Positions 2,708 through 27,480 of a DNA stretch of 30,523 bases are shown here, one piece after another. Both the position numbers and the translations under genes were made by a program. The DNA is taken from positions 1 through 30,523 of the IMG/VR virus record IMGVR_UViG_2737471824_000004. One strand, given 5' to 3'. A model generated the notes under the pieces. That model made no database searches and had not been told where the DNA came from. It saw nothing but the letters and a program-made list of their open reading frames with translations. Position 1 is the first letter of the stretch. Each line of letters begins with the position of its first letter. The DNA comes from a virus (lineage: Duplodnaviria; Heunggongvirae; Uroviricota; Caudoviricetes).

Positions 2708-3262
2708 TCAATGGATATTAAGTAACTGCTCCACGGTCATATTTTTAATTACGTCCCTGTTCACAAGCGTCCATCCCTGTTTCTCCAGATAAAAGCGGAA
2801 GGTTTCCAGGGTACAGACTATTGCTCCATCAGGAACGGTTTCAGTGAATTTGATGTTGCCGTGTTCGTCGAAGTGAACAACCAGAGTACGGCCATCGCCA
2901 GGAATCATCTTGTCAGCGGACGGGGTGTTATTCTGGCGCAGCTCTGCCTCCATGCGGTCAAACTCGGCAATGTAGGCTTCTTTGAACGCGGCGGCTTTTT
3001 TGCCGGTGAACCCCATCACCAAAAAAACGAAGCCGTTTTTGGTGATCTGGTACATTGGGAGCTTGCGTCCTGTTGAGTCGGTGTATTCGCTCGACACAAA
3101 ATTGTGCTCAGTGAATTTTGCTGAACAGTCCAGATTGCGAATTTTATCCAACACTCGTTCGTGGCGTTTACCAAAGAACTCGGCGATCGCAACAGACGTA
3201 GTGACAGCGCGACCATTTTCGATGGTTACATCAGGGTGATAAATGGTAGGGGTAGTAGCCAT
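2708..3262 (-). CDS. Rha-family phage regulatory/antirepressor protein with C-terminal domain shared with the ORF6N protein at 17746..18309
   Basis: Rha motif (VAIAEFFGKRHERVLDKIRNL...YQITKNGFVFLVMGFTGKKAAAFKEAYIAEF). Start chosen at ATG 3262 with GGAGG RBS 8 nt upstream; the in-frame upstream extension to 3670 crosses a terminator and a leader whose paralogue is non-coding. Confidence 0.7.
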   Translation of the reverse strand: MATTPTIYHPDVTIENGRAVTTSVAIAEFFGKRHERVLDKIRNLDCSAKFTEHNFVSSEYTDSTGRKLPMYQITKNGFVFLVMGFTGKKAAAFKEAYIAEFDRMEAELRQNNTPSADKMIPGDGRTLVVHFDEHGNIKFTETVPDGAIVCTLETFRFYLEKQGWTLVNRDVIKNMTVEQLLNIH

Positions 3263-3428
3263 GATGGCAGCCTCCGCGATGAATTTAATTAACTCACCAC
3301 CAGAGGTGCTAATCTCATGGGTGGTGAGACGCACAGGGTTAGCACTACCGGTCATCACGGAACCCGGCCAGCCTTGCGGCTGCCCTGCACGCCTCACCAT
3401 AATGCGAATGTGGCTGTGCTTAACGCAT

Positions 3429-3451
3429 AAAAAAACCGCCTGAGCGCGGTT
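3429..3451 (-). terminator. intrinsic terminator in the Rha leader (stem AACCGC/GCGGTT plus U7 on the minus strand)
   Basis: Hairpin at 3434..3451 followed on the minus strand by a 7-T run (plus-strand A-run 3429..3435). Confidence 0.5.
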
Positions 3452-3511
3452 ATGCGCCGTGATTGACTTCGGGGTGCTAATCCCGGCACCCGTTTTATGA
3501 GGTGCAGGTGA

Positions 3512-3739: not shown

Positions 3740-3792
3740 GGGCGGCAGAGCAGTCACGGAGTAAAACTGATACCGCCAAACGTCACCAGAAA
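3740..3792 (-). ncRNA. dicF: DicF small RNA (53 nt), followed by a T-run at 3735..3739
   Basis: Minus strand reads TTTCTGGTGACGTTTGGCGGTATCAGTTTTACTCCGTGACTGCTCTGCCGCCC then TTTTT, matching my recollection of the 53-nt E. coli DicF including its GGCGG/CCGCC terminator stem. Confidence 0.8.
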
Positions 3793-4986: not shown

Positions 4987-5115
4987 TCAGCCGTTAGATT
5001 TTGCCGAGCTGGAAAGCGCCTGTTTAAACTCACTGAAGCTGAGAGCTTCTTCGCCTTCGGCAAGGCCTTCGAAGTATTCTTCGTAAGCCTTTTCCATGAT
5101 TGTGTCGAAATCCAT
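4987..5115 (-). CDS. YdfB/YdaG-like small protein (42 aa)
   Basis: Hand translation MDFDTIMEKAYEEYFEGLAEGEEALSFSEFKQALSSSAKSNG; RBS AGGTGAG; start 1 nt after the upstream stop; below the ORF-track length cutoff. Confidence 0.5.
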   Translation of the reverse strand: MDFDTIMEKAYEEYFEGLAEGEEALSFSEFKQALSSSAKSNG

Positions 5116-5116
5116 A

Positions 5117-5272
5117 TCACTCACCTGAGTTTCTTTCCAGCCAGCGACGGGCACCATTTTCGGTTTTAAACGTTTTGCTTTTGGTATACGTCATCGCGGT
5201 GAATGTGCCGTCCTGGTTGGGAAACACGCCGTACACCAGAGATTCGTTGTTGCCAAGATCGATAGTATCCAT
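5117..5272 (-). CDS. YdfA/YdaF-like small protein (51 aa)
   Basis: In-frame ATG at 5272 with GAGGT RBS (MDTIDLGNNESLVYGVFPNQDG...); first gene of the leftward early operon. Confidence 0.55.
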   Translation of the reverse strand: MDTIDLGNNESLVYGVFPNQDGTFTAMTYTKSKTFKTENGARRWLERNSGE

Positions 5273-5457
5273 GTTGACCTCATTTCCCCTTAACGCCGGG
5301 GTAGCGGAACAAGAACCTGCTGCATAGTTATTAAAGTTGAACCCTGCCGTCATGTTCTTACGCCTCGGGCTGGCTACTTAACCCCTGACCACTGCCTGGT
5401 AACTCGAAGTATTGCCCTGCGTTCTGTGGGGCGGGGTGGGGTGGTGAAATAAGGATG

Positions 5458-5494
5458 CACTTTTAAAGTTATTATGTCAACACTTATAAAGTTA
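5458..5494. promoter_or_regulatory. left operator-like region: two copies of a 14-bp motif (CACTTTTAAAGTTA 5458..5471, CACTTATAAAGTTA 5481..5494) flanking a minus-strand TTGACA
   Basis: Same motif in opposite orientation in the cI/cro intergenic region (TAACTTTTAAAGTG 6522..6535); a -35-like TTGACA (minus, 5475..5480) lies between the copies. Confidence 0.4.
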
Positions 5495-5507
5495 GTTTGT
5501 GTGCAAC

Positions 5508-5531
5508 AAAAACCGCCTCGAGATGAGACGG
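5508..5531 (-). terminator. intrinsic terminator after the repressor-TA operon (imperfect stem CCGTCTC/GAGGCGG plus T5 on minus strand)
   Basis: Plus-strand hairpin 5513..5531 preceded by an A-run 5508..5512. Confidence 0.45.
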
Positions 5532-5544
5532 CCCTGTGAAAGGG

Positions 5545-5832
5545 TTAGTTCTGCTTAGGGAATTGGCGTCTGGCGTGTACTACACTCACGATCTCAATGC
5601 TTAAAGTGGCTACACGGTAAAGAATTATATAGTTAGGGTGAGCTACAATCTCACGCAAGCCAGGTACTCTGTCGCTTGGTGGGTATAAATACGGGTGTTC
5701 GGATAACGGCAGCACACACCCCCTTAATCGCTGCCATAAGCGTTCTGCCGCATCTATGTCGAAACGAGCAATATAACTAGTTATATCATCCAGGTCGGTA
5801 TCTGCGCTTTCAAGCCATAACACGGGTAACAT
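5545..5832 (-). CDS. type II toxin, ParE/RelE superfamily (95 aa)
   Basis: C-terminal signature ...REIVAHPNYIILYRV...VVHARR typical of ParE/RelE toxins; start ATG 3 nt after the upstream antitoxin stop with RBS ACGGAG inside that gene. Confidence 0.7.
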   Translation of the reverse strand: MLPVLWLESADTDLDDITSYIARFDIDAAERLWQRLRGCVLPLSEHPYLYPPSDRVPGLREIVAHPNYIILYRVATLSIEIVSVVHARRQFPKQN

Positions 5833-5835
5833 TTA

Positions 5836-6024
5836 CTACTTACTCCGTTCCTTGCGCATTTTAGCAAAGCGTTCTGCCATTCTGCGCTCAACCTCGTCAT
5901 GGGGAATTGCTGGGCGCGGATTTGCAAGGCTCGCTGCTACTTTCGCACGCAGCCATTCGTTGTAACTGTTTTCTTGTTCAATGGTTTCGAACTCAGAAAC
6001 CATTGGTGAAAGGGCCGTATTCAT
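5836..6024 (-). CDS. type II antitoxin (ParD/StbD-like, 62 aa) paired with the toxin at 5545..5832
   Basis: ATG 6024 with RBS CGGAGG 6 nt upstream; the longer track frame from 6087 would overlap the repressor gene; small acidic protein directly upstream of a ParE-like toxin. Confidence 0.6.
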   Translation of the reverse strand: MNTALSPMVSEFETIEQENSYNEWLRAKVAASLANPRPAIPHDEVERRMAERFAKMRKERSK

Positions 6025-6053
6025 GGCACACCTCCGTCTGTGTATGGTGGTCA

Positions 6054-6461
6054 TTATGCTCGATGCCCTTTCCGGGCAGCGAGCCATCTTTCAATTGTGC
6101 GCTCCATTAACTCTTTTTTGTCTTTCATCTCCTGAAGCATTTGTCCCTGTTCTTCCTCTGGGAATGCTCCAAATGTCTGAAGTAGCTCTCTTTGCTTCGG
6201 ACCTATTTTCATTGTGTCAGGTACCACAATCTGTTCGTCCTCACTTGGTGGCAACATAAACCAATATGGAGGGAATCCTGTTACTTCAGAAAGTTTATCA
6301 AGATTAGCCATTGATGGGCTTGTGATGCCATGAACCCACTTTTGGACCGATTGTTGGGCAACACCTATTCTGCGGGCTAGTTCTGCTTGCTTAAGCCCTG
6401 TTTTTTCCAGCACCAGTTTTATCCGGTACGTGGTTATTTCAAGAGTGGTCATTCGCTTCAT
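6054..6461 (-). CDS. prophage repressor, DicA/RacR-like (135 aa, N-terminal XRE HTH, no S24 peptidase domain)
   Basis: HTH motif LKQAELARRIGVAQQSVQKW; size and C-terminal pattern resemble DicA as recalled; divergent from the Cro-like gene; leaderless start at the predicted pRM. Confidence 0.75.
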   Translation of the reverse strand: MKRMTTLEITTYRIKLVLEKTGLKQAELARRIGVAQQSVQKWVHGITSPSMANLDKLSEVTGFPPYWFMLPPSEDEQIVVPDTMKIGPKQRELLQTFGAFPEEEQGQMLQEMKDKKELMERTIERWLAARKGHRA

Positions 6462-6568
6462 GCATTCATTTTACACAAAAAAAGTGTAGCTAGCATAATC
6501 AGCTTGAAAGTGTTGATAATGTAACTTTTAAAGTGTATAAGTGATGTCGATTGATTGGAGTTAACGAT
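6462..6568. promoter_or_regulatory. divergent immunity promoter/operator region (pR-like rightward, pRM-like leftward)
   Basis: Rightward TTGATA (6513..6518), 17-nt spacer, TATAAG (6536..6541); leftward -10 TAAAAT (minus, 6468..6473) placing the start at the ATG 6461; three AAAGTGT copies at 6481, 6507, 6530 (spacing 26 and 23 bp); palindrome TACAC-A7-GTGTA at 6472..6488. Confidence 0.55.
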
Positions 6569-6847
6569 ATGCATAAATGTTTAAAAAATAAAATTCGCCA
6601 AATAGGGTTATCCCAAGCGGGTATTGCTCGCTTGATTGGGTTGCCACAGCAGGTTGTATGTCGATGGGTTAATGGGCAACAGGTCCCTGCATCAAGGGTT
6701 TTACAACTGTGTGAGATTATGGCGTGGACTGTCACCCCCCACGAGCTCCGACCAGATATTTACCCTAACCCAACCGATGGCCTGCCTTGTGGACGTAAGA
6801 GTACAGCGAATGAATTACTGGCGGTGAACAATGAAAATCACTCCTGA
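6569..6847 (+). CDS. Cro/YdaS-like HTH regulator (92 aa)
   Basis: ATG 6569 with GGAG RBS 8 nt upstream; HTH LSQAGIARLIGLPQQVVCRW and HELRPD motif typical of YdaS/Cro-like proteins. Confidence 0.7.
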   Translation: MHKCLKNKIRQIGLSQAGIARLIGLPQQVVCRWVNGQQVPASRVLQLCEIMAWTVTPHELRPDIYPNPTDGLPCGRKSTANELLAVNNENHS

Positions 6848-7352
6848 ACAGGTTTGCGAGGCTCTGGATGCCTGGGTATGCAAACCAGGAATGACACAGG
6901 AGCAGGCGACGATATTAATCACAGAAGCATTCTGGGATCTGAAAGAGCGCCCGAACATCGATGTTCAGCGTGTCACGCTTGATGATGGCGGGGTTGATCA
7001 GCGTGCGCTTGGCGTTAACCGGGTGAAGATATTCGAACGCTGGAAGGCTATCGACACCAGGGATAAGCGTGAAAAATTCACGGCGCTGATTCCGGCAATT
7101 ATGGAGGCTATCCGGATTAGTGATTTCAGGTTGTACCGCGAAATTACTGATGGAAAAAGCATTACGTACATGATTGCCGGGTTAAACAAAGAATATGTCG
7201 ATGTGGTGGAGTCCGGGCTGCTTTTTGCAGATCCAGCTGTTGTGGAACGTGAGACAGACGAGCTTATAGAAAAAGCAATCGCTTTCAAGCGTGCCTATCG
7301 TCACCAGTACCAACAAAAAGCCGGATGGAATTATGAGCCTTCTTTTTGCTGA
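6831..7352 (+). CDS. YdaT-like protein (173 aa), function uncertain
   Basis: ORF-track ORF overlapping the Cro-like stop; position after the Cro/YdaS-like gene matches the Rac order racR-ydaS-ydaT-ydaU-ydaV; family assignment from memory only. Confidence 0.4.
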   Translation: MKITPEQVCEALDAWVCKPGMTQEQATILITEAFWDLKERPNIDVQRVTLDDGGVDQRALGVNRVKIFERWKAIDTRDKREKFTALIPAIMEAIRISDFRLYREITDGKSITYMIAGLNKEYVDVVESGLLFADPAVVERETDELIEKAIAFKRAYRHQYQQKAGWNYEPSFC

Positions 7353-8310
7353 ACGCCCGCTGGTTATAAACACACAGCTGGCGATGAAGATTGGTTTAAA
7401 CGAAGCAATTGTGTTGCAGCAACTGCATTACTGGTTGAGGGATACCAGTTCTGGCATGGAATGTGATGGCGTTCGCTGGATTTACAACACAACGGAACAA
7501 TGGCTGGAACAGTTTCCGTTCTGGTCAGAGTCAACGTTAAAGCGTGCGTTTGCAAGTCTGAAAACGCTGGGGCTTTTGCGTAGCGAAAAGCTCAATAAAT
7601 CGAAGCGTGACATGACTAATTTTTACACAATTAACTACGATAGCGCGCTTTTAGATGATGGCAAAGTGAACGAATCCATCGGGTCAAAATGCGCCACTCC
7701 ATCAGGTCAAAATGACACGATGGAAGAGGTCAGGATGAAACGTTCCATTGGTTCAAAACGACCCAATGTCATCAGGTCAAAATGGCACGATGATCCTACA
7801 GAGAATACAACAGAGAATACAACAGAGAATACAACAGAGAATAAAAAACTCTCTTGTCCGGACGCTTCGCAACCGGACGAGTTGACGGCTGAACAGGCGT
7901 TTTTAACCCGCCATCCTGATGCTGTTGTGTTCAGCGTGAAAAAACGCCAGTGGGGAACCCGGGAGGATTTGACATGTGCGCAGTGGATCTGGGGGCGGGT
8001 TGTAAACCTGTACGAACAGGCTGCCAGTGACGATGGTGAGATCACGCGACCGAAAGAGCCCAACTGGACGGCGTGGGCCAATGACGTGCGCACAATGCGG
8101 ATGCTGGATGGAAGAAGTCACAGACAAATTTGCGAAATGTTCAGCCGGGCACAACGGGATCCGTTCTGGATAAAAAACATCAAGAGCCCGGAAAAACTCC
8201 GTGAGAAATGGGATGAACTGGTTATTCGACTGTGGCGTGGTCCCGCGCAGCGTTGCGTGAATCATATTTCTGAACCGGATACCGAAATTCCGCCGGGTTT
8301 CAGGGGGTAG
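7333..8310 (+). CDS. phage replication initiation/replisome organiser protein (O/YdaU-like, about 325 aa)
   Basis: ATG 7333 (track M at 7291 is GTG); N-terminal motif NEAIVLQQLHYWL typical of replisome-organiser N domains; iterons inside the gene; followed by a DnaC-like loader. Confidence 0.6.
   Translation: MSLLFAERPLVINTQLAMKIGLNEAIVLQQLHYWLRDTSSGMECDGVRWIYNTTEQWLEQFPFWSESTLKRAFASLKTLGLLRSEKLNKSKRDMTNFYTINYDSALLDDGKVNESIGSKCATPSGQNDTMEEVRMKRSIGSKRPNVIRSKWHDDPTENTTENTTENTTENKKLSCPDASQPDELTAEQAFLTRHPDAVVFSVKKRQWGTREDLTCAQWIWGRVVNLYEQAASDDGEITRPKEPNWTAWANDVRTMRMLDGRSHRQICEMFSRAQRDPFWIKNIKSPEKLREKWDELVIRLWRGPAQRCVNHISEPDTEIPPGFRG
7678..7784. repeat. putative origin iterons: four copies of ATCRGGTCAAAATG-like motif (7678, 7701, 7747, 7771)
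   Basis: Direct repeats at 23, 46 and 24-bp spacing inside the O-like gene, analogous to ori-lambda lying within gene O. Confidence 0.5.
7798..7845 (+). repeat. 12-bp tandem repeat ACAGAGAATACA x 4 (encodes TENTTENTTENTTEN)
   Basis: Direct reading; immediately downstream of the iterons. Confidence 0.8.
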
Positions 8311-13010: not shown

Positions 13011-13186
13011 TGCAGCGGGTGCTTGAGGCTATCTGTCTCAGGCATGAACACCAAAAGGCAGATAGAGAAAAGCCCCAGTTAACATTACGCGTCCGGCAAG
13101 ACGCTTAACATTAATCTGAGGCTCAATCTATGAACGGCAAATCTAGGTTAGCCTCTTACGTGCCGAAAGGCAAGGAGAAGCAGGCT

Positions 13187-13342
13187 ATGAAGCAGCAAAA
13201 GGCGATGTTAATCGCCCTGATCGTCATCTGTTTAACCGTCATAGTGACGGCACTGGTAACGAGGAAAGACCTCTGCGAGGTACGAATCCGAACCGGCCAG
13301 ACGGAGGTCGCTGTCTTCACAGCTTACGAACCTGAGGAGTAA
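13187..13342 (+). CDS. hokD: Hok/Gef-family type I toxin (51 aa; HokD/RelF-like)
   Basis: MKQQKAMLIALIVICLTVIVTALVTRKDLCEVRIRTGQTEVAVFTAYEPEE: transmembrane helix plus LCEVR...EVAVF signature; AAGGAG RBS; in-frame upstream extension from 13130 is a mok-like leader frame. Confidence 0.75.
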   Translation: MKQQKAMLIALIVICLTVIVTALVTRKDLCEVRIRTGQTEVAVFTAYEPEE

Positions 13343-13508: not shown

Positions 13509-14123
13509 ATGCAGAATTTATCTCAACAGTTGTTAGAAGCATATGACAAGGAGTGCCGCAAAGAGCTTTCGATCGCGTTAGCACAGGCTTATCTTCATTC
13601 GCATATGAAGGCAAAAGAGTTTGGTTCTTTTTGGGCTCAAGCACAGTCATATTTGCGCTGGTTTTATGCCGATGCATTGCTTGAGAATGCGGCTAAGCGT
13701 GTGGGGCTGGATTTTGAAGTCGGTAGCAATGCTGCTAAAAATTGTAAACACATTGCGATTCACTCGAACAACTGGAAAATGACGGCACATCATTTATCGG
13801 GTAATGCGCCACTTCCTAAGCAGGCATTGTATAGAGCTGTTTACGCTAATCAAAATTATGAATTGAATTTTGGGGATGAAAATGCCGACTCCCTGGATGG
13901 GAGAGCGTCTGGTGGACATGTTTATATGTTACATGATGGCAGTAATCAGCACTTGTCCAAACTGAATTTAACTGTTCCTTCTTCGGATAATTACGGGATT
14001 CTTTATACTGAGTCTTTACCAATTATGACGATGGTAGAAGTTGAAGCAGAAAATGTGGATTCTGAGATTGAAGATAAAATCAAGATTCTTACCGAACAAA
14101 TAATTAAATCACAGCAATCATGA
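13509..14123 (+). CDS. hypothetical protein (204 aa), first gene of a two-gene low-GC module
   Basis: ATG 13509 with AAGGA RBS; stop overlaps the downstream start (ATGA); two TGGTTGACA boxes upstream (13445..13452, 13477..13484). Confidence 0.55.
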   Translation: MQNLSQQLLEAYDKECRKELSIALAQAYLHSHMKAKEFGSFWAQAQSYLRWFYADALLENAAKRVGLDFEVGSNAAKNCKHIAIHSNNWKMTAHHLSGNAPLPKQALYRAVYANQNYELNFGDENADSLDGRASGGHVYMLHDGSNQHLSKLNLTVPSSDNYGILYTESLPIMTMVEVEAENVDSEIEDKIKILTEQIIKSQQS

Positions 14124-15265
14124 GCATGAATATCGCACAAACACCATTTACTGATAAATCGTTTAATCCTCGTCGCCTTGAGGAGGCAAGAGAGGCAAAA
14201 GGGTTGACGATGGCTGAACTTGCCAGAGTGCTCAATATTTCAAGACAAGCTATTTCGTCATTTGAGAAGGGGTTGAAGTCTCCCTCTGCTGATACACTTT
14301 CTGCAATAGCCAAGGTGTTAGGATTTCCAGAACGATTTTTCTTAGCCTCCAGTGCTTCTCCATCTCTGGAGGGGGCGATTCATTTTAGAAGTCGTTCAAC
14401 TGCGACCAAAAAGGCTCGAGTTACAGGGAAAACACGTGGGCGTTGGGCGGCATTAATATTGGATGAATGTCTAAAATATGCTCAATTACCAGATGTGGTT
14501 CTGCCTGAATTCGATATTATTGATTTTGAGGTTCTGTCTCTATCTGATATTGAGGATATGTCCACCCAATTAAGGCGTTTTTGGGGGTTAGGTGATGGTC
14601 CAATACTCAATTTAACTAGACTTGTTGAAAATAAAGGAATCGTGGTTTCTCATTTACCTTCTGGTGAGAAAGTTGATGCCTTTTCGTTCTGGCATAATGG
14701 GCGGCCTTTAATTATGTTAGATAGCTCGAAGACGGCTGTTCGCATGCGATTTAGTCTTGCTCATGAACTTGGCCATTTAATTATGCATAGGGCAGTGGAG
14801 GATGACTACCTGAATGATAAAGAATTATTCGACCTGGTGGAGTTGCAGGCCGATTATTTTGCCTCCAGCTTTTTAATGCCAGCCACGACTTTCGGGCGTG
14901 AATTTTATAGTCCAAATTTATCAGCGTTAGAACGATTAAAACTACGTTGGATTACATCTATCGGTAGTATTGCCATGAGGAGTCATAGCCTTAAGTTAAT
15001 CAGCGATAATCAGAAAAGCTATATATTTAAGCAATTAGCGCCATTCCATCGTAGGGAGCCGTTAGATGATGCAATCCCAAAAGAAGAGCCTGAGTTACTT
15101 AATAAGTTACTTTTACTTCTTGATAAGCATTCAATCATAAAGGTAACTGAGTTAACTGATATCTTTGCTCTTCCCTTAAATGAGTTATCTGCAATTACAC
15201 GATTTAAAGAATCAGATATGATTCATTCTGACAATGTTATTTCATTTACCATAAAACAAAAATAA
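14120..15265 (+). CDS. XRE-family HTH fused to ImmA/IrrE-type zinc metallopeptidase (COG2856-like), 381 aa with C-terminal extension
   Basis: HTH LTMAELARVLNISRQAISSFEKG; HEXXH motif LAHELGHLIMH. Confidence 0.75.
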   Translation: MSMNIAQTPFTDKSFNPRRLEEAREAKGLTMAELARVLNISRQAISSFEKGLKSPSADTLSAIAKVLGFPERFFLASSASPSLEGAIHFRSRSTATKKARVTGKTRGRWAALILDECLKYAQLPDVVLPEFDIIDFEVLSLSDIEDMSTQLRRFWGLGDGPILNLTRLVENKGIVVSHLPSGEKVDAFSFWHNGRPLIMLDSSKTAVRMRFSLAHELGHLIMHRAVEDDYLNDKELFDLVELQADYFASSFLMPATTFGREFYSPNLSALERLKLRWITSIGSIAMRSHSLKLISDNQKSYIFKQLAPFHRREPLDDAIPKEEPELLNKLLLLLDKHSIIKVTELTDIFALPLNELSAITRFKESDMIHSDNVISFTIKQK

Positions 15266-17497: not shown

Positions 17498-17560
17498 TCC
17501 TCACGCGTCAGCAAAATCTGGCGTCGGGATTAGGAACCCCGGATAGAGACCGCGACAGAT

Positions 17561-17583
17561 ACACGCCGCGAGCGTGTTTTTTA
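17561..17583 (+). terminator. tR'-like intrinsic terminator (ACACGC-CGCGA-GCGTGT plus T6)
   Basis: Direct reading; about 70 nt downstream of the pR'-like promoter. Confidence 0.5.
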
Positions 17584-17745
17584 TTGTCGTATGCACGCGC
17601 ACATCTGAATTATGGTGGGGCGTATGGGGGAGCTGAAAGGCTCGCCGGTTGGTTTCCCGGTAGTTCCTAACCCTGTACGTCTCACCACCCGATGATTAGG
17701 AACCTGACGGTGGTGATAGTTTAGAAACCACTAGAGGGCGTCATT

Positions 17746-18309
17746 ATGACAACTCAAATCTCTGTTGAAACTCTCTCCCCGATCACCCATAACCAGATTC
17801 CTGTTATTACCACTGAACTTTTGGCGCAGCTTTATGGCACCGAAATTCTGAATATCCAGGTTAACTTCACCAGAAACAAAGAGCGTTTTGTCGCAGGAAA
17901 GCACTTTTTTAAAGCAGCGGGTGAGGAATTAAAAAAATTGCGACTTACTTTAAGTAAGTCACAAAATCCCATCTCTCCCAAAACCCGCTTCCTCATCCTA
18001 TGGACAGAACGCGGAGCTGCCCGCCACGCAAAAATGCTGGAAACAGATCAGGCGTGGGAAGTATTCGAAAAACTGGAAGACTGTTATTTCAGCCAGAAAC
18101 AGCCACCAGCAACACAAAACTCCCCCACCGAAAATGATGGATGCGCATTACTGATCCACTTCGATAAACACGGTCAGGTCGACTTCACGGAAAAAGTACC
18201 CGCCGATGCGATGGTATGCACTCTGGAACGGTTCAAATTTTATCTGGAACAACGCGGCTGGATCGTTGCCAGTAAAGAGCAACTGGTGGAACGACTGATG
18301 CGACTTTAA
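17746..18309 (+). CDS. ORF6N/KilA-N-type antirepressor-like protein with the same C-terminal domain as the Rha protein (187 aa)
   Basis: N-terminal ITTELLAQLYGTE...NKERFVAGKHFF...LWTERGAARHAKML resembles the ORF6N domain; C-terminus LLIHFDKHGQVDFTEKVPADAMVCTLERFKFYLEQRGW parallels the Rha C-terminus; RBS GAGGG. Confidence 0.65.
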   Translation: MTTQISVETLSPITHNQIPVITTELLAQLYGTEILNIQVNFTRNKERFVAGKHFFKAAGEELKKLRLTLSKSQNPISPKTRFLILWTERGAARHAKMLETDQAWEVFEKLEDCYFSQKQPPATQNSPTENDGCALLIHFDKHGQVDFTEKVPADAMVCTLERFKFYLEQRGWIVASKEQLVERLMRL

Positions 18310-20221: not shown

Positions 20222-20513
20222 ACAACGAATCCTTCTGATCTGCTTTTGCGGGGCTTTTTTGTATCCGCTCCATGCCCGGCGTATAAGCGGAGGTTGGTCA
20301 GTTTTCTAAAAATTGAAATACCTCACAATTCAGCCAGTTAATGGTTGTTTGTCTGGCGAAGAGTTTGTAAATAAAAAAACGCATGGTGAATCCCCCTAAG
20401 CGGCGGGGCGAATCAGCAGTCAGTTCTGGGATAATCGCGGGTTTGTATGCTGATGCCGGACTCACCGGGAGGCACCCGGCACCATGCATCATGGTCATCC
20501 CCTTGTATGATAC

Positions 20514-20568
20514 CCCTCTCCGGAGGGGTATTTTTTGGATAAAAAAGCCCGCGCTGGGAGGCACGGGC
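20514..20568. terminator. back-to-back terminator-like hairpins (plus: CCCCTC-TCCG-GAGGGG plus T6 at 20514..20537; minus: hairpin 20547..20568 with T6 on the minus strand)
   Basis: Direct reading. Confidence 0.4.
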
Positions 20569-26346: not shown

Positions 26347-26536
26347 ATTGCAGGCGCTGCGTCAGGCGCGCCTTGATTTATTAACCGGTAAACGGGTGGT
26401 GTCTGTCCAGAAAGATGGTCGCAGAATTGAATATACGGCGGCTTCTCTGGATGAGCTTAACCGGGCGATCAATGATGCGGAGTCGGTACTGGGGACAACC
26501 CGACGTCGCCGTCGTCCGCTGGGAGTGAGGTTATGA
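26330..26536 (+). CDS. head-tail joining protein W (68 aa)
   Basis: LTGKRVVSVQKDGRRIEYTAASL resembles lambda gpW; GGAGG RBS. Confidence 0.75.
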   Translation: MVTVAELQALRQARLDLLTGKRVVSVQKDGRRIEYTAASLDELNRAINDAESVLGTTRRRRRPLGVRL

Positions 26537-27480
26537 AACTAACGCCTGTCCTGATTGATGTGAACGGCGTTCCGCTTCGTGAGAGTCTCAGCTACAACGG
26601 GGGCGGCGCAGGATTTGGCGGGCAAATGGCGGAGTGGTTGCCACCGGCGCAGAGTGCCGATGCGGCCCTGCTGCCCGCGTTGCGTCTGGGGAATGCCCGG
26701 GCAGATGATCTGGTGCGCAATAACGGAATAGCGGCTAATGCGGTGGCCCTGCATAAAGATCACATTGTCGGGCATATGTTTCTGATCAGCTACCGTCCGA
26801 ACTGGCGCTGGCTGGGGATGCGGGAGACTGCAGCCAAAAGCTTTGTCGATGAGGTGGAGGCGGCCTGGTCGGAATACGCCGAAGGGATGTTTGGCGAGAT
26901 CGACGTGGAAGGAAAACGCACCTTCACGGAATTTATCCGTGAAGGTGTGGGCGTTCATGCGTTTAACGGCGAAATATTTGTGCAGCCGGTCTGGGATACG
27001 GAAACCACGCAGTTATTCCGTACGCGTTTTAAAGCCGTGAGTCCGAAACGGGTGGACACGCCAGGACACGGTATGGGGAACCGTTTTCTGCGGGCCGGTG
27101 TGGAGGTCGATCGATATGGCCGTGCCGTTGCGTACCACATCTGTGAGGATGATTTTCCGTTCTCTGGTAGTGGAGGATGGGAACGGATCCCGCGTGAACT
27201 TCCCACCGGGCGTCCGGCCATGCTGCATATTTTCGAGCCGGTGGAGGACGGGCAGACCCGTGGGGCTAATCAGTTTTACAGCGTCATGGAGCGGCTGAAG
27301 ATGCTCGATTCCCTGCAGGTAACACAGCTTCAGTCGGCCATTGTGAAGGCCATGTATCCGCACCTGATACCAGCCGTCGCTCAGTTTCTGGCGAAACGCA
27401 GGGAGCTGTGTGGCCAGCGCCCGGATGGCTTCTGCCCCCGTTTTCACACGCAGGTCGATGCGGCGGCCAAATCGTTGTAA
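26533..27480 (+). pseudogene. portal protein B, 3'-truncated (homology ends near 27360)
   Basis: N-terminal about 276 aa resemble lambda gpB through ...SAIVKAMY; the following 39 codons are antisense to the I fragment; lambda B is far longer as recalled. Confidence 0.7.

What the first reader, a model, noticed from the sequence alone, without database searches (positions are those of the whole stretch)
5545..6024. ParE/RelE-type toxin-antitoxin pair in the slot equivalent to lambda rexAB
Directly downstream of the repressor gene and upstream of an intrinsic terminator (5508..5531) and the left operator region, a tightly coupled antitoxin-toxin pair (3-nt gap, toxin RBS inside the antitoxin gene) occupies the position where lambda carries rexA/rexB. 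It would be co-transcribed with the repressor in the lysogen. In K-12 Qin, as I recall, dicA is followed directly by ydfA, so the pair is accessory.
Basis: partly seen in the sequence, partly recalled or inferred. Interest (0 to 1): 0.55.

Follow-up and report, generated by a model that had tools for sequence, protein, structure and literature searches.

The report
Known PaaA–ParE toxin–antitoxin behind prophage repressor
The two small genes are a real toxin–antitoxin pair, but they are a near-copy of the already characterised paaR–paaA–parE "three-component" module that sits behind the repressor in lambda-like prophages of E. coli O157:H7, so the finding is correct but ordinary.

Summary
On the minus strand, a 62-aa antitoxin (5836..6024) and a 95-aa ParE toxin (5545..5832) are separated by 3 nt. 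They lie 29 nt downstream of an HTH repressor (6054..6461). An intrinsic terminator (5513..5531 plus a U-run) and an operator/promoter block follow them.

The pair is not new. The proteins are 95% and 93.5% identical to PaaA2 and ParE2 of cryptic prophage CP-933P, whose structures are solved (3ZBE, 5CW7). That operon was described by Hallez 2010 and Jurėnas 2021 (PMC8630535). Its regulator acts like lambda CI, its YdaS like Cro and its YdaT like CII. It is co-transcribed and addictive, and the antitoxin is degraded by ClpAP/ClpXP.

What differs here is the regulator allele. It is a DicA-type repressor, 64% identical to the regulator of the second O157 locus. It matches PaaR2 only in the C-terminal 55 aa. 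It has its own ACTTTWAAAGT operators at OR and OL. The last ~20 codons of parE come from a diverged allele.

The same DNA occurs at 100% identity in RefSeq genomes. K-12 Qin lacks the pair between dicA and ydfA, so it is accessory.

Verdict: already known, low interest. An anti-phage, Rex-like role remains untested.

The parts
5545..5832 (-). parE-type toxin gene (95 aa). It is the ParE2 allele with a diverged 3' end.
   Evidence: Pfam ParE_toxin E = 8e-16. PDB 5cw7_B 'ParE' E = 1.2e-57. 93.5% identical to EDL933 ParE2. Codons 1-73 show 7 synonymous and 0 non-synonymous differences from parE2. Codons 74-92 are only 68% identical at nucleotide level.
5836..6024 (-). paaA-type antitoxin gene (62 aa). 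It has no DNA-binding domain.
   Evidence: Pfam PaaA2 (PF21217) E = 1.4e-19. PDB 3zbe_A PaaA2 E = 4.3e-34. 95% identical to EDL933 PaaA2, and one residue shorter through CAG->TAG. 6 synonymous and 3 non-synonymous differences.
6054..6461 (-). Regulator gene: a DicA-type HTH repressor with a PaaR-like C-terminal domain. It is the CI analogue and the third component of the module. RefSeq starts it at 6452.
   Evidence: Pfam HTH_3 E = 1.3e-13 and no peptidase S24 domain. 34% identical to K-12 DicA over 109 aa. Only the C-terminal 55 aa align to PaaR2, at 53%. 64-65% identical over its full length to the regulator of the second O157 locus.
5508..5531 (-). Intrinsic terminator ending the repressor-antitoxin-toxin transcript, analogous to lambda t_imm.
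   Evidence: 7-bp G+C-rich stem (5531..5525 / 5519..5513), 5-nt loop and a U5GUUG tail. Fold z = -2.98. A terminator occupies the same place in the O157 locus L165.
5452..5492 (-). OL/PL-like block: -35 TTGACA (5480..5475), a 17-nt spacer, a weak -10 CATCCT (5457..5452), and two operators at 5459..5469 and 5482..5492, spaced 23 bp apart.
   Evidence: Repeat family D1 links it to OR. Pattern search. It is paralogous to the PR block. It has no DNA homology to the CP-933P PL region although both flanks are homologous. Promoter function is inferred.
6468..6541 (.). OR block between the divergent repressor and cro-like genes. Operators lie at 6524..6534 (perfect), 6501..6511 and 6475..6485 (degenerate). 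The PR candidate is TTGATA (6513..6518), 17 nt, TATAAG (6536..6541) on the plus strand. The PRM candidate has a -10 TAAAAT (6473..6468, minus strand) that would start transcription at the A of the ATG at 6461, giving a leaderless mRNA.
   Evidence: and direct reading. The leaderless arrangement is inferred by analogy with paaR2 and cI (PMC8630535). It was not tested.
6569..6847 (+). ydaS-like gene (Cro analogue), divergent from the repressor.
   Evidence: Pfam YdaS_toxin E = 1.6e-10 and HTH_3. 25% identical to CP-933P YdaS.
6831..7352 (+). ydaT-like gene (CII analogue).
   Evidence: Pfam YdaT_toxin E = 1.1e-5. 31% identical to CP-933P YdaT.
5117..5272 (-). ydfA homologue (DUF1391), the first gene of the leftward early operon beyond PL.
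   Evidence: 100% identical to K-12 YdfA over 51 aa. The DNA from 5000 to 5310 is 98% identical to Qin.

Best explanation
This is a member of the paaR-paaA-parE three-component type II toxin-antitoxin module, built into the immunity region of a lambdoid prophage.

Proposed mechanism:
1. In the lysogen the CI-like repressor (6054..6461) is transcribed leftward from a PRM-like promoter in the OR block.
2. The same mRNA continues across a 29-nt gap into paaA and parE. It stops at the hairpin and U-run at 5508..5531, just before OL/PL.
3. PaaA is a short protein without a DNA-binding domain. It binds and neutralises ParE. Transcriptional control is left entirely to the prophage repressor, the Cro-like YdaS and the CII-like YdaT.
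4. PaaA is protease-labile (ClpAP/ClpXP). A cell that loses the operon, by excision, deletion or replacement of the immunity region, is therefore left with free ParE.
5. Free ParE associates with the nucleoid and triggers the SOS response, probably through a topoisomerase, so that cell dies.
6. The net effect is addiction, which stabilises the prophage immunity region.

Shown here: gene identities, layout, operators, terminator, mosaic boundaries and purifying selection.
Taken from experiments on the 93-95% identical CP-933P proteins: operon structure, toxicity, neutralisation, proteolysis and plasmid stabilisation.
Inferred for this allele: the promoters, a possible leaderless repressor mRNA, and that the diverged ParE C-terminus stays active.
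For: - Pfam ParE_toxin and PaaA2 hits.
- Near-identity to solved ParE2 and PaaA2 and to the EDL933 CP-933P genes.
- Same neighbourhood as CP-933P: ydaT, ydaS, OR, regulator, paaA, parE, terminator, OL/PL, ydfA.
- The regulator shares the PaaR2 C-terminal domain (53%). It is 64% identical over its full length to the regulator of the second O157 locus.
- ACTTTWAAAGT operators occur at both OR and OL, spaced 23 bp apart.
- The terminator folds at z = -2.98.
- No minus-strand terminator-like site lies between 6461 and 5545.
- Purifying selection: parE codons 1-73 show 7 synonymous and 0 non-synonymous changes; paaA shows 6 and 3.
- The pair occurs in 623 of 5426 complete E. coli genomes.
- The published work on paaR2-paaA2-parE2 covers the operon, PaaR2 as CI analogue, PL933P downstream of parE2, mini-F stabilisation and ClpAP/ClpXP-dependent PaaA2 decay (PMC8630535).
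Against: - Nothing here measures transcription, toxicity or addiction for this allele.
- The last ~20 codons of parE are a diverged segment, and the protein is 3 aa longer than ParE2.
- The antitoxin is one residue shorter than PaaA2.
- The candidate PL -10 (CATCCT) and PR -10 (TATAAG) are imperfect, and the generic promoter scan did not report them.
- In the published system no ParE2 activity was detected in either transcriptional state. The natural trigger and the biological pay-off of the addiction therefore remain unproven even for the reference locus.
Confidence: 0.88

Rival explanations
1. The pair is mainly a lysogen-expressed anti-phage (abortive-infection or superinfection-exclusion) module. 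That would make it a functional as well as positional equivalent of lambda RexAB. Infection by another phage would deplete PaaA or shut off its synthesis, and freed ParE would abort the infection. This does not exclude addiction.
For: - It occupies the rexAB slot and would be expressed from the repressor transcript.
- The same prophage carries other cassettes in accessory positions: an RmrT/RmrA-like (Rosmer-type) defence pair and a hok/sok locus.
- The pair is conserved behind many heteroimmune repressor alleles.
- The literature increasingly assigns defence roles to type II TA systems (PMC10440598).
Against: - No PADLOC defence model matches either protein.
- Full-text searches found no report of phage protection by PaaA2-ParE2.
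- There is no sequence relation to RexA or RexB.
- The only demonstrated phenotype of the homologue is post-segregational killing.
Confidence: 0.15
2. The pair is an inert remnant. The chimeric parE 3' end and the shortened antitoxin have inactivated the module, which is merely carried along in a mosaic prophage.
For: - parE codons 74-95 differ strongly from parE2 (68% nucleotide identity, 6 amino-acid changes, 3 extra residues).
- paaA has a premature TAG that removes the last residue.
- Some related contigs have truncated regulator ORFs.
Against: - Both ORFs are intact with good ribosome-binding sites.
- Exactly this allele is 100% conserved in RefSeq genomes and in four IMG/VR contigs.
- There are no non-synonymous changes in 73 parE codons against 7 synonymous ones.
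- The diverged C-terminal segment keeps the ParE pattern (YRV..S.E.V.V.HARRQFP) and resembles the C-terminus of the O157 second-locus ParE.
Confidence: 0.05
3. The pair is transcribed on its own rather than with the repressor, from an internal promoter in the 3' part of the repressor gene. It would then be a classical two-gene TA that merely neighbours the repressor.
For: - In 68 non-enteric proteobacterial genomes, homologous paaA-parE pairs have no PaaR/DicA-like gene upstream. The pair can therefore exist as a two-gene unit.
- In the published reporter, the TA operon was transcribed in both switch states.
Against: - The gap is only 29 nt, with no terminator and no promoter-like site reported.
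- PaaA has no DNA-binding domain for autoregulation.
- The homologous operon was reported as a single transcription unit controlled by PaaR2.
Confidence: 0.1

Closest known systems
paaR2-paaA2-parE2 of cryptic prophage CP-933P / Sp12, E. coli O157:H7 (Hallez et al. 2010; Jurėnas et al. 2021, PMC8630535; structures 3ZBE, 5CW7, 5CZE, 5CZF)
   Same: - Antitoxin 95% and toxin 93.5% identical.
- Same gene order, and a similarly short regulator-antitoxin gap (29 nt here, 20 nt in CP-933P).
- Same position between the CI-like regulator and a terminator plus PL/OL block.
- Same divergent ydaS-ydaT and downstream O/DnaC-like replication genes.
- The regulator C-terminal 55 aa are homologous at 53%.
   Different: - The regulator N-terminal DNA-binding domain is unrelated (a canonical DicA/HTH_3 type here).
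- The operators differ: ACTTTWAAAGT here against a GTTTAGTAA-based consensus in CP-933P.
- YdaS and YdaT are only 25% and 31% identical.
- There is no DNA homology over 6026..7840 or over the terminator/OL/PL stretch.
- The parE 3' end is a diverged segment.
- PaaA is 62 aa rather than 63, and the gap to parE is 3 nt rather than 1 nt.
Second O157:H7 regulator-antitoxin-ParE locus (locus L165). It is presumably the paaR1-paaA1-parE1 system that PMC8630535 places in CP-933M. I did not verify the name or the prophage identity.
   Same: - Identical architecture, including terminator, OL/PL, the conserved leader and ydfA.
- Its 133-aa regulator is 64% identical to the window's repressor over its full length.
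   Different: - ParE is only about 71% identical and PaaA about 73% (figures from the related IMG/VR locus L076), with a different antitoxin C-terminus.
- The operators differ (AAAACTGT/ACAGTTTT type).
DicA-DicC immunity region of K-12 cryptic prophage Qin
   Same: - The repressor is a DicA homologue of the same length (34% identity, including the C-terminal domain).
- The downstream ydfA is 100% identical at protein level.
   Different: Qin has no toxin-antitoxin pair between dicA and ydfA (167 nt there against about 780 nt here).
Lambda cI-rexA-rexB operon
   Same: Accessory genes sit directly behind the repressor gene, are transcribed with it in the lysogen, and end at a terminator before OL/PL. 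This positional and regulatory analogy is already drawn in PMC8630535.
   Different: - There is no sequence or fold relationship.
- RexAB is an exclusion system with a membrane channel component.
- The repressor here has no S24 autocleavage domain.
Classical ParD-ParE (RK2; Caulobacter 3KXE; Vibrio ParDE2)
   Same: ParE-fold toxin (PDB 3kxe E = 3e-5) with the antitoxin encoded upstream.
   Different: The antitoxin has no ribbon-helix-helix DNA-binding domain and does not autoregulate. Regulation is delegated to a separate HTH protein.

Membership tests
paaR-paaA-parE three-component type II TA | ParE-fold toxin closely related to ParE1/ParE2 | tested here: met
   Pfam PF05016 E = 8e-16. PDB 5cw7_B E = 1.2e-57. 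93.5% identity to EDL933 ParE2.
paaR-paaA-parE three-component type II TA | Short PaaA-type antitoxin without a DNA-binding domain, encoded immediately upstream of the toxin | tested here: met
   Pfam PF21217 PaaA2 E = 1.4e-19 is the only hit. 95% identical to PaaA2. 3-nt gap.
paaR-paaA-parE three-component type II TA | A separate HTH regulator gene directly upstream in the same orientation | tested here: met
   HTH_3 protein ending 29 nt before paaA. C-terminal domain 53% identical to PaaR2. 64% identical over its full length to the O157 second-locus regulator. The N-terminal domain is not homologous to that of PaaR2.
paaR-paaA-parE three-component type II TA | Embedded in a lambdoid immunity region: divergent ydaS/ydaT, shared operators at OR and at a PL downstream of parE | tested here: met
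   YdaS_toxin and YdaT_toxin Pfam hits. Operator repeats at 5459-5492 and 6475-6534. Replication, nin, lysis and terminase genes to the right.
paaR-paaA-parE three-component type II TA | Single operon; toxin toxic and neutralised by the antitoxin; antitoxin degraded by ClpAP/ClpXP; post-segregational killing | not testable with these tools
   Known only for the CP-933P homologue (PMC8630535). Here it is only consistent with the sequence: short gaps, no internal terminator, purifying selection.
Classical ParD-ParE | Antitoxin with an N-terminal ribbon-helix-helix (ParD/CopG-type) DNA-binding domain that autoregulates the operon | tested here: not met
   No RHH or ParD model matches the antitoxin; only PaaA2 does.
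RelB-RelE (mRNA interferase) | Toxin matches the RelE/StbE family above its threshold | tested here: not met
   TIGR02385 RelE_StbE scores 21.4 bits, below the 27.9 cut-off. Pfam assigns ParE_toxin. RefSeq's 'RelB family antitoxin' name comes from NF050103 and is only a label.
Lambda RexAB exclusion system | RexA and RexB homologues | tested here: not met
   No RexA or RexB Pfam hit for either protein. The analogy is positional only.
Catalogued anti-phage defence systems (PADLOC v2) | Either protein matches a defence-system model | tested here: not met
   0 families for toxin and antitoxin at E <= 1e-3. The repressor hits only generic HTH parts of RmrA models.

The most novel reading that the evidence does not exclude
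The conserved paaA-parE core (about 97% identical between heteroimmune prophages, while the repressor/OR and OL/PL segments on either side share no DNA homology) might be more than an addiction cassette. It could be a lysogen-expressed, Rex-like abortive-infection module. It could also act as a conserved recombination linker that polices exchange of immunity regions. On that reading, any swap has to pass through or retain the TA, which would explain a recombination junction inside parE and the shuffling of TA and repressor alleles.
Probability: 0.15. Interest if true: 0.45.

Novelty: already known. Interest (0 to 1): 0.12.

Why it matters
As a discovery it matters little. The module, its structures, its regulation by a CI/Cro/CII-like circuit and its addictive behaviour are published, and this exact DNA is already in RefSeq genomes with routine annotation.

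The residual value is comparative:
- The same PaaA-ParE core is coupled to at least four or five different repressor alleles, each with its own operators.
- A mosaic junction lies inside parE.
- The homologous pairs surveyed in other Proteobacteria have no PaaR/DicA-like regulator gene upstream.

This supports the published idea that a two-gene TA was captured by the prophage immunity operon. It also shows that the TA survives immunity-region swaps. Whether it protects lysogens against other phages, as its rexAB-like position suggests, is still open and easy to test.

Tried and rejected
1. Canonical ParDE or RelBE was rejected. The antitoxin has no RHH or RelB-fold DNA-binding hit, and the toxin is below the RelE_StbE cut-off.
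2. The regulator is not PaaR2 itself. Only the C-terminal 55 aa align, and the published PaaR2 N-terminus is MQKKE.
3. A search for the published YdaT site TTGATTN6AATCAA found 4 matches at up to 2 mismatches, against 2.5 expected, and none in the immunity region. This is uninformative, as expected for a YdaT only 31% identical.
4. The generic promoter/terminator scan found no more sites than shuffles. It missed the minus-strand terminator and the PR/PL candidates, which rest on folding and on paralogy between OL and OR.
5. The operator pattern is not enriched window-wide (11 matches against 8.1 expected at up to 3 mismatches). The evidence is its clustering: 5 of the 11 matches, and 3 of the 4 with at most 2 mismatches, lie at OL and OR.
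6. The phage database holds only one record with the pair (Escherichia phage Evi, 92%), so it added little.
7. No complete E. coli genome holds more than 61% of the first 25 kb of the window. The prophage as a whole is a new mosaic, but that is normal for lambdoid prophages.
8. Literature searches for an anti-phage role of PaaA2/ParE2 found nothing.
9. Structure prediction was not run, because the proteins are more than 93% identical to solved structures.

Full report
**Observation**

The minus strand of 5545..6024 holds two tightly packed ORFs.
- The antitoxin ORF starts at ATG 6024, six bases after a GGAGG, and ends at TAG 5838..5836.
- Three bases (TAA) follow, then the toxin ATG at 5832. 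A GGAG at 5846..5843 lies inside the antitoxin gene.
- The toxin ORF ends at 5545.
- An HTH gene (6054..6461) ends 29 nt upstream of the antitoxin.
- Downstream of the toxin, a 7-bp G+C-rich hairpin (5531..5513) is followed by UUUUUGUUG. The 56-nt stretch folds at -16 kcal/mol, z = -2.98. The generic terminator scan missed it.
- Beyond the hairpin lie two 11-bp palindromes, ACTTTTAAAGT (5459..5469) and ACTTATAAAGT (5482..5492), 23 bp apart. They flank and overlap a TTGACA hexamer.
- The same palindrome recurs at 6524..6534, between the divergent repressor and cro-like genes. Degenerate copies lie 23 and 26 bp further on.

**Identity of the genes**

- Pfam calls the toxin ParE_toxin (E = 8e-16) and the antitoxin PaaA2, 'stability determinant' (E = 1.4e-19).
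- Against solved structures, the toxin matches ParE of 5CW7/5CZE at E = 1.2e-57. The antitoxin matches PaaA2 of 3ZBE at E = 4.3e-34.
- Against the CP-933P locus of E. coli O157:H7 EDL933 (L002), the identities are 93.5% for ParE2 and 95% for PaaA2.
- The divergent genes are YdaS-like and YdaT-like. O-like and DnaC-like replication genes follow. Further right come nin-region, lysis, terminase and portal genes.
- The window is therefore a lambdoid prophage, and the pair lies in its immunity region.

**What is already known**

The mBio 2021 paper (PMC8630535) describes the paaR2-paaA2-parE2 locus of CP-933P as a three-component TA operon in the immunity region.
- PaaR2 is a functional analogue of lambda CI. 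It is translated leaderless, and it binds repeats at OR and at a PL located beyond parE2.
- YdaS acts like Cro and YdaT like CII.
- The circuit is bistable.
- PaaA2 has no DNA-binding domain and is degraded by ClpAP and ClpXP.
- ParE2 localises to the nucleoid and induces SOS.
- The locus stabilises an unstable mini-F plasmid.
- The authors draw the comparison with cI-rexA-rexB and propose that the TA inserted into the immunity region.
- A second homologous system is stated to exist in CP-933M.

**What is particular to this window**

- *The regulator is not PaaR2.* Only its C-terminal 55 residues align with PaaR2, at 53%. The N-terminal domain is a canonical HTH_3.
- *It is a DicA-type protein.* It is a full-length homologue of K-12 DicA (34%, same length). 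It is 64-65% identical to the 133-aa regulator of a second O157:H7 locus with the same architecture (L076, L165). That locus is presumably the published paaR1-paaA1-parE1, but I did not verify the name.
- *No autocleavage domain.* The repressor has no S24 domain. Induction would therefore need another route.
- *Mosaic boundaries.* DNA alignment with CP-933P shows homology beginning exactly at the paaA ATG. It runs at about 97% through paaA and the first 73 codons of parE and decays over the last ~20 codons. It is absent over the terminator and OL/PL (about 5447..5545) and resumes at 5446 towards ydfA. To the right there is no homology from 6026 to 7840.
- *Consequence.* The two immunity-specific segments (repressor/OR/cro/cII, and OL/PL) are swapped, while the TA core between them is conserved.
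- *Selection.* Substitution counts show purifying selection: parE codons 1-73 have 7 synonymous and 0 non-synonymous changes, and paaA has 6 and 3. In parE codons 74-92, synonymous sites are saturated (pS 0.86). This indicates a recombination junction inside parE.

**Distribution**

- The pair is found by megablast in 623 of 5426 complete E. coli genomes. Fifteen match at 99% or more, and 597 match at 90-95%, the band that holds the CP-933P paaA2-parE2 allele of O157:H7.
- This repressor allele with its OR occurs in only 37 genomes. At least 32 of them also carry the pair next to it.
- The best match, 100% over the pair, is a Stx2b prophage beside potC.
- Among 80 IMG/VR contigs, 50 have a PaaR2-type regulator, 8 have the window type, and 22 have other PaaR/DicA-related alleles. 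Eight of those 22 have a truncated ORF upstream of the pair; I did not examine them further.
- One contig combines the window-type repressor with a 73%-identical ParE. Regulator and TA alleles therefore shuffle.
- In 68 representative genomes of other Proteobacteria, homologous paaA-parE pairs (45-75% identity) have no PaaR/DicA-like gene upstream.
- K-12 Qin has dicA followed directly by ydfA. Its ydfA region is 98% identical to window 5000..5310.

**Mechanism**

The best-supported account is the published one, transferred by near-identity.
1. The repressor, antitoxin and toxin are made from one leftward transcript that stops at the hairpin before OL/PL.
2. PaaA neutralises ParE.
3. Loss of the operon lets the labile antitoxin decay, and ParE then kills the cell.

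The following points are my inference and were not tested:
- PR is TTGATA-17-TATAAG.
- PL is TTGACA-17-CATCCT.
- PRM has a -10 TAAAAT at 6473..6468, which would start transcription at the A of the ATG at 6461 and give a leaderless repressor mRNA as for paaR2 and cI.
- The three OR sites are arranged like lambda OR1-OR3.

**Rivals**

- *Rex-like anti-phage role.* It is plausible from the position, but it has no support. No PADLOC model matches and no paper reports it.
- *Inactivation by the chimeric C-terminus.* This is unlikely given intact ORFs, exact conservation and the substitution pattern.
- *Independent transcription.* This is unlikely given the 29-nt gap and the lack of a DNA-binding domain in PaaA.

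**Verdict**

The feature is real and correctly interpreted, but it is a known system. This exact allele is already in public genomes with standard annotation. Novelty: already known. At most it is a further regulator/TA allele combination. Interest is low.

Noticed in passing
window 13509..14123 (+) and 14120..15265 (+): A second two-gene cassette. A 204-aa protein matches PADLOC RmrT (E = 7.5e-10). A 381-aa HTH plus Peptidase_M78 (ImmA/IrrE) protein matches RmrA (E = 5.5e-102). Together they look like a Rosmer-type toxin/antitoxin defence pair with a 4-nt overlap. The segment 13431..15276 has no counterpart in the CP-933P or Stx2b-prophage loci.
   Followed up: partly
window 13017..13192 (+): Rfam sok antitoxin RNA (112 bits), indicating a hok/sok type I toxin-antitoxin locus. 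hokD is annotated at the homologous place in related prophages. The prophage thus carries three TA-like modules.
   Followed up: no
window 3317..3505 (-) and 17505..17692 (+): Two isrK plus C4 antisense-RNA units (Rfam). Each lies directly upstream of a Rha/ORF6N antirepressor-like gene (2708..3238 on the minus strand; 17746..18309 on the plus strand). Because the repressor has no S24 autocleavage domain, an antirepressor route to induction is plausible.
   Followed up: no
window 3740..3791 (-): DicF sRNA (Rfam, 76.7 bits) in the leftward early region, as in Qin and CP-933P.
   Followed up: no
window 20352..20540 (+): STnc100 sRNA family match (113.9 bits) between the DNA methylase gene and the lysis region.
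   Followed up: no
window 26533..27480 (+): The lambda-family portal ORF is only 315 aa and matches profile positions 2-243 of 354. It may be truncated or frameshifted, which would make the prophage defective.
   Followed up: no
loci L085-L164 (representative genomes of alpha-, beta- and gamma-proteobacteria): PaaA-ParE homologues (45-75% identical) occur widely as two-gene units. Their upstream neighbours vary and include no PaaR/DicA-like regulator. How these pairs are regulated, given an antitoxin without a DNA-binding domain, is unclear.
   Followed up: partly
window 7291..8310 (+), about 7760..7800: The O-like replication protein contains a tandem TENT-encoding repeat (TENTTENTTENTTEN), presumably the iteron/origin region inside the gene as in lambda O.
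   Followed up: no
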